From: Candidatus Firestoneibacteriota bacterium
GTDB lineage: Bacteria > Oederibacteriota > D2-FULL-39-29 > JBDRBU01
Length of the DNA stretch: 14,824 nucleotides
Assembly (NCBI GenBank): GCA_043822305.1
Contig: JBDRBU010000097.1
Span: 1 to 14,824 of the forward strand
Direction: 5' to 3'
Numbering within the stretch: position 1 is the first letter of the stretch; each line of letters opens with the position of its first letter. Positions 1-6,000 of this stretch are shown piece after piece. The position numbers are program-made.

Positions 1-3000
1 ACTTTAATTTTACTTTTATCAAAATTAACCATTTGGTAACCTCCTTTAAAAGGTATAAACTTTTTCCTTTACATATAGGTTACCATATTATATACTATAG
101 ATAATAAAAAATATTACATTAAACTTGAGGAAGTCTCTAAAGGAGGATTTACTCATATGATGAAATTTTTAAGAAATAATATGAAAATAATTTTCTGGGT
201 AGTAGTCGTATGTTTTTTAGCCACCATATTTTTAGTCTGGGGAATGAAAGGTGAAATTTCAACAGTAGCACCAAATGTTTTAGCCATAATAAATGGCAAA
301 GAACTCTCATTGGAAATATTTAATTCAATATACACACAGAAAATAGATGAGTTGCAAAAAGAATTTAAAGGTGAAGTCCCTGAATTTTATGAAGGATTTT
401 TAAGGAAACAAATATTGAATTCCTTGATAACACGAACATTATTATTAGAAGCAGTTAATAAATATAAAATACATTCAACAGAAGAAGAAATAAGAAGCAA
501 AGAAGAAGAAATAAAAACGAGAATAAGAAGTTTTTTCTATGTTGATGGTAAATTTGATAAAAAAAGTTTTGAGCGAGCAGTAAAAAGTGGTAGAATTCCA
601 TATGATGAAATTATAAATCAGGAAAAAACTAACCTGATCTTATCTAAATTAGAAAGAATGATAAAAGATACGGCCAAAGTAACAGAGGAAGAAATAAAAG
701 AAGAATATTTAAAAAATAAAGAAAAAAGAAAAGTAAAATATATAAAAATAGATGTTAAAAACTATCTTAAAAATATATCAATCATAGAAGATGATCTTAA
801 AAAGCACTACGAACAAAATATTAATAGTTTTAAAATTCCTGAAAAATTTAAAGTTAAATATATTTTCTTTGGTGTTAACGCTAAAGAAAAAGCAAAATCT
901 CTTATTGGAAAATTAAAAGCTGGTACTGATTTTGCAACTTTAGCCAAAGAGAATTCCGACGACCCTGGTTCAAAAGACAAAGGTGGTGATTTAGGGTTTT
1001 TTAAAAAAGGTGTCATGGTTAAAGAATTTGATGATGTTGCCTTTAACTTAAAAGTAGGAGAAATTACCAATGAACCAGTGAAAACACAATTCGGATTTCA
1101 TATAATTAAAGTTGAAGAAAAAAAAGATGACGAAATTAAAGCGAGACATATACTAATTAAATTAGACACGGACGATAAAATTAAGGCATCTTTTAAGGAA
1201 AAAGCAGAAAATATACATAAAAAAATTATCAGCAAGAATTTCGAAGTAATTGCAAAAGAAAACTCTTTAAGCGTTAAAGAAATATCATTCACTAAGGAAG
1301 AACCCTTAAAAGATATTCCTGAGCAAGAAAAATTCAAAAACGAGGTATTTAATCTTAAACCAAATGAAATTTCTACTCCAGTTGAAACAGAAAATGGGTA
1401 TTATTTGATAAAATTAATGGACAAAATACCCGAAAACATAAAACCATTAGAAACCGTAAAAAACGAGATACAAAACAAAATAAAATTAGAAAGGGCTTTA
1501 CCCTTAGCAGGAATTGAAGCAGAAAAATTATACAAAAAAATATTTGAAGAAAAATCTGATTTTGATCTAGTTTGCAAACAATTCGGAATAAAAGAAACTG
1601 ATTACTTTGATCGGGAAGGAAAAGAATTAAAAAATATTGACCATACAGGAGAATTTACTAGAACTACTTTTAAAATAGCAAATATTGGAGAAATCGGCAA
1701 GATAGTGAAAACTCAAGAAGGATGCTATTTACTAAAACTAACAGATAAAAAACTTCCCGATGAAGCAACATATTTAAAAGAAAAAGAAACTATTAAAACC
1801 GAACTTTTAACTAAGAAGCAAAATATTGTTTTCTCCCAATGGTTAGAAAATTTAAGGAAAAATGCTAAAATAAAAGATTATTCGGATAGATTTTTTAAAG
1901 AATAAGTAGGGACTACAAAAGAACAACCCCCTAACCCCCTTTATTAAGGGGGAATAGACTCACGATTTTTATTCAATAGTGCTCTTTAAGTCAGATAACT
2001 TCTTTTTTAACTTGCTTATTTTTTCCTTAAATTCTACTTCTTTAAAATCTATTTCAATCTGTTGTTCATTTTTTTTCTTTAATTCTTTAATCTTTATTTT
2101 TGCCCCCTTAAGAGTAAATTTATCCTCGTAAAGAAGTTTATGTATTTGAAATATTATGGCCATATCTTTTTTTCTATAAGTTCTTTGTCCGCCAATACCC
2201 CTTCCTGGTTTTAAAGATTTAAATTGGTTTTCCCAATATCTTAATATATAAGGTTTTACATGTGTAATTTCACTTACTTCACTAATTGTAAAAAATAGTT
2301 TATCGGGTATTTTAAACTCGTCTATCATATGAAATTTCCCCTTTTTCAATCTGTCGTTTTAATATTTTACTTGGTTTAAATGCTGGGATTTTTTTAGCAG
2401 GAATAATTACCTTTTCTCCTGTTTTAGGATTCCTTCCTATTCTTTCTCTCTTTTCTCTTATGATAAATGTTCCAAATTTACTTATTTGAACTTTTTCGCC
2501 AGACTTTAAAGAATTAACTATTGAATCTAATAATGTTTGAACAGATTTTTTAGCCAGACTATTATTTATTCCTAATTGGGCAACATTTCTAACTAAATCA
2601 CGTTTGGTTATATTCATAACAACAACCCCCTTGATCCCCCTTAACAAAGGGGGAATATAATCCTCACGGCTTTCACTGACTATTTACGCGAATTTTCTAT
2701 TCAGATTTAAGTTTTCGTTGCATTAAGTTACTAATGGCTTTAATTGGAGATTTGTCTTTAAATAAAACATTATAGACTTCTTTTGTTATAGGCATTTCAA
2801 GATTATATGTTTTAGATATCTTATAACAAGTCTTTGTGGTTGTAATACCTTCTGCAACCATTTCCATAGAGATTAAAATATCCTTTAATTTTTCTCCCTT
2901 CCCTATTCTCTCTCCGACCATTCTATTTCTACTATACTTACTCATACAAGTAACTATCAAATCTCCAATACCTGATAAACCATTAAGTGTGTCTGGCCTG

Positions 3001-6000
3001 GCACCCATTTGACTCGCTAACCTTTTTATTTCTATTAGCCCTCTGGTTATAAGAGCTGCCTTAGTATTATCACCTGTTCCTATTCCGTCTAAAATTCCTT
3101 TAGCCAAAGATATTACATTTTTCAATGCTCCACCTAACTCAACTCCAATGACATCATATGAGGTATACACTCTAAAGTAATTATTAGAAAATACTTTTTG
3201 CAACATATTAGCCATCTCTTTATTTTTAGATGCAATAACCACCACTGTCGGAACTTTTCTACTTACTTCTTCAGCATGACTCGGTCCTGATAAAACAGCT
3301 ATTCTTCCATTCAAATTTAATTCTTTACTTATCACCACCGAAATTCTATCTAATGTTTTATAATCAATACCTTTAATTACGCTTAAGACTATGACTTTCT
3401 TGCTTATTTTTATTTTTGATATTCTCCTTAAAATATTTCTTAAATATTTTGACGGAACGGCGAGGATTAGTATGTCTATATTATGTAAGGCCAGATGAAG
3501 CGAATTTGTTATTTCTATACTTTTGGGTATTTGGACACCTGGCAAAAATTTTAAATTTTCTCTTGTTTTATTTAAAAACTGTGTGTAATCTTCAAAATAT
3601 TCATATAAGGTAACATTATGTTTATTCTCTGCCAGGAGTATGGCTAATGCTGTTCCCCATCCACCTGCTCCTATTATACTGATTTTCTTACCATATGGCA
3701 TTTTCTTTGCCCTCTAATATTCTTTTAATATTGGAAATATGTCTTATAATTATGAGTATTGTGGCTAATGCTCCAAAAAGTACAATATATAAAGACTTTT
3801 TAAAAATCAATATTGATACTAAAAACGCGACTGAACTGATTATAGAACCTAACGATACATATCTAGTAATTAAAACTACCAGCAAAAATACGATGGCACT
3901 TATTCCGAGTTCGAACGGTGTTAAGGCTAAAAATACTCCCATACTTGTGGCTACTCCTTTTCCCCCTTTAAAATTTAAAAATATTGTCCAATTATGCCCT
4001 ATGATTGCACATATTCCGCAAATAATACTCAAAACTTCAATGTTTTGTGAACCCGGCACCATATCGGTACAAGGTAAACTAGAAATCAGTAATATCGAAA
4101 CATACTGAGTACATATAAATCCTTTTACAAAATCAATTATCAAAACTAATATACCAGGTATTACGCCTAATGTTCTAATTACATTTGTCGCCCCAATATT
4201 TCCACTTCCTTGTTGTCTTATGTCTATTTTAAAGAAAATTTTCCCTACTAAATACCCTGTGGGAACAGAACCTAGAATATAACAAATAATCATGGTGAGT
4301 ATAATTAAAAACATTTATCCCATCCTTTTTATTCCTTTAATTAAATAATCCAATAAAGATATCATTGTGAATACTATCATTATATACAGGTAAATATTCA
4401 AGATGGTTATCTGTGGAAGTAACAATAATAATATAACCGAAGTACTTTGCAAAAAATTAGTGAATTTCCCAAATATACTTGGTTCAATTTTTATATTAGA
4501 AGTAATTATAAATATTAATAACCAGCCAAGTATAAGTATGATATCTCTACTTATTATGGTTACGACCATCCAGTCTGGTATTAAGATAGTCGAGGCTAAT
4601 AATAAAAAAGCGGTATTTATCAATATTTTATCTGCTAACGGGTCCAATATTGAGCCTAAAGTACTTCTTGATTTATTTATCCTGGCAATAATGCCATCTA
4701 ATATATCTGTTATCATCGCCACTATAAATATCAAAGTAGCTATTTTAATATCTGTTTTAAAAAAAATAACAAATAAAGGAGTAGATAATATTCTTAACAC
4801 AGTTAAAATATTCGGTAGTGTTATAGTTTTCATAATATTTTCTTTTTCAACAGTACTTTTTTAAATACATCTACAATGAGTGGGTCAAATTGTGTGAATT
4901 TATTTAATTCTAATTCATTTAAAGCAGTATTTTCATCAATAGCTTTCCTGTAAGGTCTGTCTGATATCATGGCTTCAAATGCATCGACAACAGTAATAAT
5001 CCTTGATAATAATGGTATGCTCTGTTCTTTTAAACCATCAGGATATCCTTTCCCATTGTAACGTTCATGATGATGAGCAATAATATTCGCCACATCTTTA
5101 AACTCACTTATTTTTTCTAATATATTCGCAGCAATAACCGGATGTTTTTTAACTACTTCATATTCGGATGGAGTTAATTTAGAAGGCTTTTTTAAGATAT
5201 TGTCTTCTATACCAATTTTACCTATATCATGCAATATAGCACTAAATTGCAACAGTTCTTTTTCTTCCTCTGTTAATCCAATTTCTACAGCTATTTCAAT
5301 CGCATATTTAGTAACCTCTTCAGAGTGATCTCTTGTATAATTATCTTTAGTATCAAGTATAGTCGCCAGAGATTTAATAATATTCATATACATAGTTTTT
5401 GATTGCTTTAATAATCTTGCATTTTCAATGGCAATAGCCGTATGTGAGGCAAATATTAAAGTTAACTTTTTTTCATCTTCGCTAAAAATTCTTTTATAAG
5501 GAGAAAATATTGTAAGAACTCCAACGATTTTGTTTTTAACTATTAATGGAACACAAATTAAAGAATTTATTTTTTCTAGATGGCTATGATTATATGTTGA
5601 TATATCTTCTATGGTTAAAAGCTGTTGCATCTTAACTGCTTTATTTTCAATATCATTTAAAAGATTTTCTATATCGATTAAATAATTTGAAGATAACCCA
5701 TATGATGCATATAATTCTAATTTTTGTTCTGTTTCGTTTAAAAGTTTTAATACAGTTCCTTTGGCCCATAATATTTCAGTTATGGAACGAACTATTAGAT
5801 TTAAGACCGTATCTAAATCTACTGTTGAAAGTATTACATTTCCTAAATAAGAAATGGAAGACTGATTTTTAACCATCTCGAGTGTAGATTCGTAAACTTG
5901 GGCCCTTTCAATCACTATTGACGCTTTTTCAACAAGATTTTCTAAAAATTTTACTTTTTTTTCATTAATCTCTTCTTTATAATATAATAATATTATACAG

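What a model noticed while it worked through the whole genome (the two positions that open the first line are those of the whole stretch)
2697..4833. Non-CPR bacterium that builds ribosomes without Der/EngA, Era, EngB, RsgA, RimM, TruB or uL30
This prototrophic 2.1-Mb diderm and all 12 other genomes of its class (D2-FULL-39-29, 'Firestonebacteria') lack the ribosome-assembly GTPases Der/EngA, Era, EngB and RsgA/RbgA, and also RimM and TruB. It keeps ObgE, HflX, LepA, RbfA, RimP, uL1 and a full-length 23S helix H78. Der loss is thus not confined to Patescibacteria, and here it is not coupled to the uL1/H78 changes seen there.
Evidence so far: Six-frame HMM searches, 0 of 13 class genomes each: EngA TIGR03594 at 1e-50, EngA KH domain, Era at 1e-25 (136), EngB (137), RsgA/RbgA (138), RimM (126), TruB (193). 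uL30, RNase E/G, true RNase J, RNase HI and RecJ: 0 of 5 tested (128, 190, 189, 188, 149). GreA: 0 of 12 in the order (127). The controls rang in 8-14 of 14 known genomes. The Der KH domain is found in 81 of 86 phylum genomes outside the class (2 of them weak non-Der hits; call 134). Empty ancestral sites lie mid-contig: phylum genomes G031 and G018 have der directly upstream of the (plsY-)gpsA-(ihfA-)merR block, whereas C97 has pgsA-plsY-gpsA-ihfA-merR. rpsP abuts trmD (C10, 3 nt), rpsE abuts rplO (C120, 12 nt), and rbfA-nrnA h [...]
(Added by a program. Inside this text positions count along the whole contig: contig position 1 is position 1 of the stretch shown here. "Call 12" and the like, gene names such as g00115 and contig names such as C1 are that model's own, and its searches are not shown. 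The text may have been shortened before it was handed on; [...] marks where a part breaks off. The agent that wrote the report below was given it as the finding of a first reader that could run no searches.)

Follow-up and report, generated by a model that had tools for sequence, protein, structure and literature searches.

The report
Bacterial class lacking ribosome GTPase Der
A whole class of uncultured, self-sufficient bacteria has deleted the gene for Der, a ribosome-assembly enzyme that nearly all other bacteria keep and that E. coli cannot live without, so large ribosomal subunits can evidently be finished without it outside the tiny-genome Patescibacteria.

Summary
The core observation holds. 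Der/EngA is absent from 13 of 13 class genomes and present in 82 of 86 other phylum genomes. The window is its empty site: pgsA abuts plsY here, and plsY has no der upstream in 11 of 13 class genomes; closed relative G074 has pgsA-der-plsY-gpsA-ihfA-merR. TruB is likewise class-specific (0/13 vs 81/86), uL30 nearly so. Era, RimM, EngB and RsgA losses are not special: many Der-keeping relatives lack them too. Der loss with uL1 kept is also common in Patescibacteria (154 of 505), so that contrast fails. New here: the SRP GTPases Ffh/FtsY are missing too (4 of 4 class genomes tested). A separate two-genome phylum (G140, G148) lacks Der and uL30 as well; RpoB+RpoC reject a shared origin (p-AU 0.003). 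Both lineages changed the same L1-stalk bases (2112, 2113, 2169) beside Der's contact site, a change that is neither necessary nor sufficient for Der loss. Best reading: a true ancestral deletion, with ObgE-centred 50S maturation (inferred). All class genomes are MAGs. I found neither loss in print, nor in this scan's earlier notes.

The parts
4315..4833 (-). pgsA-like CDP-alcohol phosphatidyltransferase; upstream flank of the empty der site
   Evidence: TIGR00560 100.7 bits (cut-off 109.1), PF01066; only G000 hit for the gene upstream of der in G074 (36% identity) and in L175 (38%)
4314..4315 (-). pgsA/plsY junction: the place where der (about 1.33 kb) lies in relatives; zero spacer here
   Evidence: junction sequence; G074, L175 and L176 carry pgsA-der-plsY-gpsA
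3688..4314 (-). plsY, glycerol-3-phosphate acyltransferase; downstream flank
   Evidence: TIGR00023 over cut-off; directly downstream of der in 30 of the 30 best-scoring phylum der loci
2697..3701 (-). gpsA, NAD(P)H-dependent glycerol-3-phosphate dehydrogenase
   Evidence: NF000942 over cut-off; follows plsY in 29 of those 30 loci, one cut by a contig end
2312..2647 (-). ihfA-like DNA-binding protein
   Evidence: NF001401 1e-27, below cut-off; same position in class genomes and G074, G018, G042, G068
1969..2349 (-). merR-family regulator closing the conserved block
   Evidence: PF13411; conserved position
4830..6896 (-). GAF/HD-GYP-like signalling protein; present in one or two copies or absent between hflX and pgsA across the order
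6977..8047 (-). hflX, one of the retained ribosome GTPases
   Evidence: TIGR03156 432 bits, over cut-off

Best explanation
der was deleted cleanly from the pgsA-der-plsY-gpsA block in the ancestor of this class (shown by comparison), together with truB, and with uL30 and the SRP pair at about the same depth. The lineage now finishes its 50S subunit without Der and without a Der-like substitute (inferred). [quoted passage not shown] Here ObgE, with RsfS, RluD, LepA and in most genomes BipA, most likely carries late maturation alone, and the cells tolerate slower or less guarded assembly (inferred). The changed L1-stalk head (G2112A, U2113G, A2169U/G; shown) probably reflects release from, or partial compensation for, the lost Der contact (inferred, weak). 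Probability that the loss is real: about 0.93. The confidence below is for loss plus this mechanism.
For: Absence by three models and a lineage-built profile: (profile of 30 phylum Der proteins over all 27,179 six-frame pieces of G000: best hit MnmE, nothing for the KH end). Every strong G-domain match in the 13 genomes fits another family by length and start, with representatives named by NCBIfam as MnmE, HydF, Obg, TypA, SelB, CysN-like, RF3; none has two tandem G domains. Mid-contig empty site in 11 of 13 class genomes and in 3 metagenome contigs, filled site in G074, L175, L176. Class is one clade (100/100) nested in a Der-keeping phylum (100/99). ObgE, RsfS, RluD, LepA kept. EngA and ObgE bind the same intermediates; EngA touches uL1, L1 helices and U2111 (bioRxiv 10.64898/2026.02.15.706057). 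Four CPR classes live with obgE and without der (PMC12641178). A second lineage repeats the package.
Against: No closed genome in the class: 13 MAGs, 80-98% complete; G000 itself lacks BipA, which 11 of the 12 others appear to have. No experiment shows how these ribosomes assemble. A non-homologous replacement was not excluded, since I annotated only a small part of the proteome. The L1-stalk change occurs with Der kept in 33 of 49 other genomes carrying it, and many CPR rows keep G2112/U2113. The class shows no excess of 23S change overall: 37 diagnostic positions against 5-59 private changes in single Der-keeping genomes. Only G074 among 9 phylum neighbourhoods has pgsA upstream of der.
Confidence: 0.6

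Rival explanations
1. Der is gone but an unrelated, lineage-specific protein has taken its placeholder role (as Nmd3 occupies a similar site in eukaryotes).
For: Der is lethal to delete in E. coli and kept in 99.19% of 15,274 non-CPR genomes, including reduced symbionts. The preprint likens EngA's site to that of Nmd3. Homology searches cannot see such a factor.
Against: Nothing fills the der site. A scan of G000 for N-terminal double-CxxC proteins gave 15, none that I could read as Nmd3-like by eye; they were not run against a family library. The one basic 49-aa ORF near rbfA is absent from 11 other class genomes.
Confidence: 0.2
2. The rRNA change came first and is the cause: a remodelled L1-stalk head folds without Der, making der dispensable.
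For: A2112/G2113 with U or G at 2169 in 4 of 4 class 23S genes and both G140 and G148, against 0 of 5 Der-keeping relatives and E. coli. 2169 is changed in all 53 stretches carrying the pattern. With U2169, 14 of 18 genomes lack Der; with G2169, 2 of 31. G2112-A2169 is the pair that stacks on the tRNA elbow (PMC5309774), next to U2111, which contacts EngA.
Against: Two class genomes have the G2169 form, which goes with Der kept in 29 of 31 others. The 14 Der-less U2169 genomes are mostly small CPR-like bins and so not independent; rRNA is often mis-binned. Der's essential role is more likely at h89/h93, which a stalk-head change would not replace.
Confidence: 0.12
3. Assembly or binning artefact: der exists but was missed in every MAG.
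For: All 13 are MAGs; 4 of 86 other phylum genomes also show no Der; G000 has gaps (EF-Tu cut by a contig end, BipA missing).
Against: 0 of 13 against 82 of 86; six of the 13 are at least 90% complete; the ancestral site is assembled and empty in 11 of 13; G000 has all 20 tRNA types and tmRNA; the same pattern holds for truB and uL30 at their own sites.
Confidence: 0.04
4. A Der homologue persists but has diverged or split beyond detection.
For: Family f5 of the phylum has divergent Der just under the cut-off (292-305 bits), so drift happens nearby.
Against: Those divergent copies still score 1e-87 or better; the general G-domain model at E 0.01 finds no unassigned strong match in the class; the unfiltered local profile finds none in G000.
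Confidence: 0.04

Closest known systems
Der-less ribosome biogenesis of Patescibacteria/CPR (Paceibacteria, Dojkabacteria, WWE3, Microgenomatia; Amikura et al. 2025, PMC12641178)
   Same: der absent with obgE kept; era, rimM, ysxC, rsgA, yjgA, rlmH, rluB and uL30 missing; lepA, ychF, rluD, rnc, pnp kept. The state der-/uL1+ also exists there (154 of 505). Dojkabacteria-titled records share the same L1-stalk pattern.
   Different: Not CPR: 1.7-3.0 Mb assemblies, amino-acid pathways and outer-membrane genes present in G000, nested in a phylum that keeps Der. Keeps rimP, rsfS, rbfA, hflX, rlmN, rsmE and an RlmD-like enzyme, which CPR mostly or often lack. A datable deletion with an empty site rather than a deep-branching state.
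Canonical Der/EngA (TIGR03594) in the der-plsY-gpsA block
   Same: The block and its order are conserved in the window.
   Different: der itself is missing, with no remnant.
SRP-less bacteria: Leptospira, Dehalococcoides, SAR86 (PMC4758666, one passage read)
   Same: Ffh and FtsY not found.
   Different: Those losses are reported without Der loss in the passage read; here both are missing, in two lineages.

Membership tests
Der/EngA-containing bacteria | protein with two tandem G domains | tested here: not met
Der/EngA-containing bacteria | C-terminal KH-like domain PF14714 | tested here: not met
   0 of 13, control 10 of 14
Der/EngA-containing bacteria | der upstream of plsY-gpsA | tested here: not met
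   empty in 11 of 13; 2 genomes lack the assembled site
Patescibacteria/CPR | phylogenetic placement in CPR | tested here: inconclusive
   class nests with 11 Der-keeping phylum genomes at 100/99, but no CPR genome was in the tree; kinship codes put it in another phylum
Patescibacteria/CPR | 0.5-1.5 Mb genome with sparse biosynthesis | tested here: not met
   2.15 Mb; His, Trp, Leu enzymes, BamA, LpxA, LpxB
CPR-type Der-less assembly (works like) | der absent, obgE present | tested here: met
   Obg-sized match in 11 of 13 genomes, in pieces or not seen in G008 and G002
CPR-type Der-less assembly (works like) | uL30 absent | tested here: met
   0 of 13, empty site
CPR-type Der-less assembly (works like) | loss of uL1 or shortening of H78 | tested here: not met
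   uL1 present in G000; H78 35 nt in 4 of 4; matches only the der-first state described for Dojkabacteria
CPR-type Der-less assembly (works like) | co-loss of rlmH, rluB, rlmD with der | tested here: inconclusive
   RlmH 0 of 5 over cut-off, RluB not found in G000, RlmD-like protein present; no phylum control
CPR-type Der-less assembly (works like) | rRNA introns | tested here: inconclusive
   group I intron in G000 23S only, 1 of 4 class genes
CPR-type Der-less assembly (works like) | functional 50S made without Der | not testable with these tools
   needs culture, enrichment or reconstitution

The most novel reading that the evidence does not exclude
Der is not a bacterial universal outside CPR: it was lost independently at least twice in medium-sized, non-CPR lineages, each time as part of one package (Der, SRP GTPases Ffh/FtsY, uL30, TruB) and with the same remodelling of the L1-stalk head (2112/2113/2169). 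This would define a recurrent low-GTPase route to build and target ribosomes, and would name specific 23S bases that might let E. coli live without Der.
Probability: 0.3. Interest if true: 0.88.

Novelty: new variant of a known kind. Interest (0 to 1): 0.72.

Why it matters
Der is treated as essential and near-universal (99.19% of non-CPR genomes in the one survey, which used RefSeq genomes and does not list this lineage). That survey argues that such repertoires are peculiar to CPR and reflect early divergence. A clean deletion inside an ordinary, biosynthetically capable phylum, with close Der-keeping relatives for comparison, shows that Der can be lost secondarily, without extreme genome reduction. 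It gives paired genomes in which to look for what makes Der dispensable, and concrete candidates (ObgE, L1-stalk bases) to test in laboratory strains. It also bears on minimal-cell design and on Der as a marker gene.

Tried and rejected
1) The roughly 415-445-aa class GTPases as hidden Der: they are HydF. The best class TIGR03594 hit (G012) is MnmE. 2) Era, RimM, EngB, RsgA as class-specific losses: rejected. 3) The 23S intron as a general compensation: only 1 of 4 class genes has it. 4) A general excess of rRNA remodelling: not seen. 5) The 49-aa basic ORF behind nrnA as a new ribosomal protein: not conserved in 11 other class genomes. 6) Shared origin with G140/G148: RpoB alone did not reject it (p-AU 0.10; the mixture-model test did not finish); RpoB+RpoC did (p-AU 0.003, LG+G4 only). 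G076 gave no RpoB or RpoC and was left out of the tree. 7) Mapping CPR H77 states to classes from the paper's supplement: too few rows overlapped in the parts read; dropped. 8) Phylum controls for Ffh from rimM loci: ffh does not lie there, so G074 is the only control. 9) Sequencing runs: none was listed. 10) No Rfam match in the window. 11) Earlier notes of this scan: three look-ups, none on Der loss. 12) No structure or complex prediction was run; it could not test an absence.
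Full report
What the window is. The window is contig C97 of G000, a 2.15-Mb, 125-contig MAG rated 96.8% complete. Positions 2697-4833 hold three lipid genes on the minus strand, a pgsA-like phosphatidyltransferase, plsY and gpsA, followed by ihfA and merR. The pgsA stop abuts the plsY start. The finding concerns what is missing at that junction and in the genome.

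Der is absent from the class. The Der KH domain matched 0 of 13 class genomes, with 10 of 14 controls ringing. TIGR03594 over 99 phylum genomes was over cut-off in 76, all outside the class. Six more outside genomes had clear divergent, split or partial Der (1e-47 or better), giving 82 of 86; four had none (63-93% complete). The best class hit was 3e-44 and is MnmE. The general G-domain model over the 13 genomes gave matches that sort by frame length into MnmE, Obg, FeoB, YchF, HflX, HydF, IF2, RF3, BipA, LepA, EF-G, EF-Tu, SelB and CysN-like proteins. I cut out 20 doubtful places and had 8 named by NCBIfam; the rest are sorted by length and start only. A profile built from 30 phylum Der proteins, run without filters over all 27,179 six-frame pieces of G000, found MnmE first and nothing for the KH end.

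The site is empty, not unassembled. plsY lies directly downstream of der in all 30 best-scoring phylum der loci, gpsA next in 29. In the class, pgsA-plsY is found in G000, G001-G004 and G006-G010 (10 genomes; G007 is cut after plsY), and G012 has a CsgG-like gene 94 nt upstream of plsY; G005 and G011 lack the assembled site. Of 9 phylum neighbourhoods examined, the closed genome G074 shows both flanks with der between them: pgsA-der-plsY-gpsA-ihfA-merR. Among 60 metagenome loci, L175 and L176 show the same filled order and L138, L162 and L165 the empty one. The upstream genes of G074 and L175 hit only the window's pgsA in G000.

Which losses are special. Class against the other 86 phylum genomes: TruB 0/13 vs 81, uL30 0/13 vs 74, also missing in family f5 and G074, RimM 0/13 vs 52, Era 0/13 vs 42, RsgA 0/13 vs 26 (only 31 candidates scored per genome), EngB 0/13 vs 18 over cut-off. 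So only Der and TruB, and largely uL30, mark the class. The 24 genomes of families f14-f23 lack RimM, EngB and (23 of 24) Era but 23 keep Der. Empty sites: rpsP-trmD 3 nt apart where G074 has khpA-rimM; rpsE next to rplO in G000 and G006; rbfA-nrnA-HU in 11 genomes of the order and rbfA-nrnA-ribF in G012. With E. coli queries G000 keeps ObgE, HflX, LepA, RbfA, RimP, RsfS, RluD, RlmN, RlmB, RsmE, RsmH, RsmD, an RlmD-like enzyme, RNase III, PNPase, RNase R, DeaD and YqgF; not found were RlmE, RlmH, RluB, YjgA, YhbY, RaiA, GreA, RelA and BipA (single-sequence searches, so weak for short divergent proteins). His, Trp and Leu enzymes, BamA, LpxA, LpxB, all 20 tRNA types and tmRNA are present.

First, Ffh and FtsY: the SRP54 model found nothing in G001, G007 and G012, three matches in G074, and rang in 14 of 14 controls; E. 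coli Ffh and FtsY found no orthologue in G000. That is 4 of 13 tested and one phylum control. Second, another lineage. G140, whose record title reads Candidatus Desantisbacteria, and G148 form a two-genome phylum with no Der, no double-G-domain protein, a Der-free plsY-gpsA-ihfA-merR block in G148, rpsE overlapping rplO and no truB behind rbfA, and no SRP54 match in G140. Their completeness is not given. On RpoB+RpoC (22 rows, 2505 columns, LG+G4) the class is one clade at 100/100 inside the phylum at 100/99, and forcing it together with G140/G148 is rejected (p-AU 0.003); RpoB alone did not reject this (0.10).

The rRNA. H78 is 35 nt in all 4 class 23S genes found, as in E. coli. But the stalk head differs: G2112A, U2113G and A2169U or G in 4 of 4, and in both G140 and G148, against none of 5 Der-keeping relatives. 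G140's 23S lies on the same contig as its rpoBC. G2112-A2169 stacks on the tRNA elbow (PMC5309774, passages), and U2111 contacts EngA (bioRxiv 10.64898/2026.02.15.706057, parts 1-3 of 7). An exact pattern scan of the species collection gave 53 stretches, all with 2169 changed. In 49 of their genomes (three own-group loci and one duplicate left out) Der was found in 33: absent in 14 of 18 with U2169 and 2 of 31 with G2169. Those 14 are mostly small CPR-like bins, so not independent, and some rRNAs look mis-binned. Many CPR rows of the one supplement part read keep G2112/U2113. The change is therefore neither necessary nor sufficient, and the class has no overall excess of 23S change (37 diagnostic positions against 5-59 private ones).

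How it most likely works. Shown: deletion of der and truB at the base of the class, retention of ObgE and its late partners RsfS and RluD in G000. From the preprint: EngA is a placeholder that times L1-stalk, h68-69 and PTC folding and shares several intermediates with ObgE. Inferred: ObgE-centred maturation suffices, with less guarded assembly tolerated; the stalk-head bases drift or partly compensate. I put the loss at about 0.93 and this mechanism at 0.6, replacement by an unrelated factor at 0.2, rRNA-first at 0.12, artefact or hidden homologue at 0.04 each.

Comparison and novelty. Amikura et al. (PMC12641178; parts 1-4 of 7 and supplement parts 1, 3, 4, 243, 249 read) report der in 99.19% of 15,274 non-CPR and 38% of 505 CPR genomes, with four CPR classes keeping obgE without der. 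Their non-CPR set is RefSeq only; a search of the supplement for this lineage's names found nothing. SRP loss is known in Leptospira, Dehalococcoides and SAR86 (PMC4758666, one passage); PMC8321541 (passages) added nothing. Ten library searches (listings and abstract starts only, apart from the papers named) showed no report of Der loss outside CPR; the library lacks most subscription papers. It works like CPR-type Der-less assembly but is not CPR: a new variant of a known kind. Interest 0.72.

Noticed in passing
G000:C39:6811-10190 (L131:2528-2816): A 299-nt group I intron after U1917 (H69 loop) of the 23S gene, too short for a homing endonuclease; absent from G001, G008, G009.
   Followed up: partly
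G000, G001, G007, G012, G140 (whole genomes): No Ffh or FtsY; no SRP-RNA-like motif in G000 by a crude pattern.
   Followed up: partly
G140:C88 and G148:C77 (L290, L291): RpoB and RpoC are fused in one 2,534-2,540-aa frame in this second Der-less lineage.
   Followed up: no
class 23S, E. coli positions 1940, 1944, 1967: U1940C, U1944C and C1967U in 4 of 4 class genes, at positions unchanged in 5 relatives and E. coli; only 1967 is shared with G140/G148.
   Followed up: partly
G000:C120:14116-15763: Two non-ribosomal ORFs (330 and 228 aa, signal-peptide-like starts) sit inside the S10 operon between rplD and rplW.
   Followed up: no
G000:C19:12973-13125: A 49-aa very basic ORF behind nrnA, found in no other class genome examined.
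   Followed up: yes
G000 whole genome: No RelA/SpoT, GreA, RaiA or BipA hit with E. coli queries; may be gaps or losses.
   Followed up: no
G012:C15:3621-7393; G001:C39:8313-11960: rpoB falls into two frames in G012 and its match holds one stop in G001; assembly error or natural split not decided.
   Followed up: no
G013, G016, G017 (family f5): Der is full length but diverged just below the TIGR03594 cut-off, and this family also lacks uL30 (0 of 5).
   Followed up: no
window 4830-6896: GAF/HD-GYP-like gene varies between zero, one and two copies between hflX and pgsA across the order.
   Followed up: no
G148:C113 (L303): An insertion interrupts the 23S gene shortly after the H71 region, probably another intron.
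   Followed up: no
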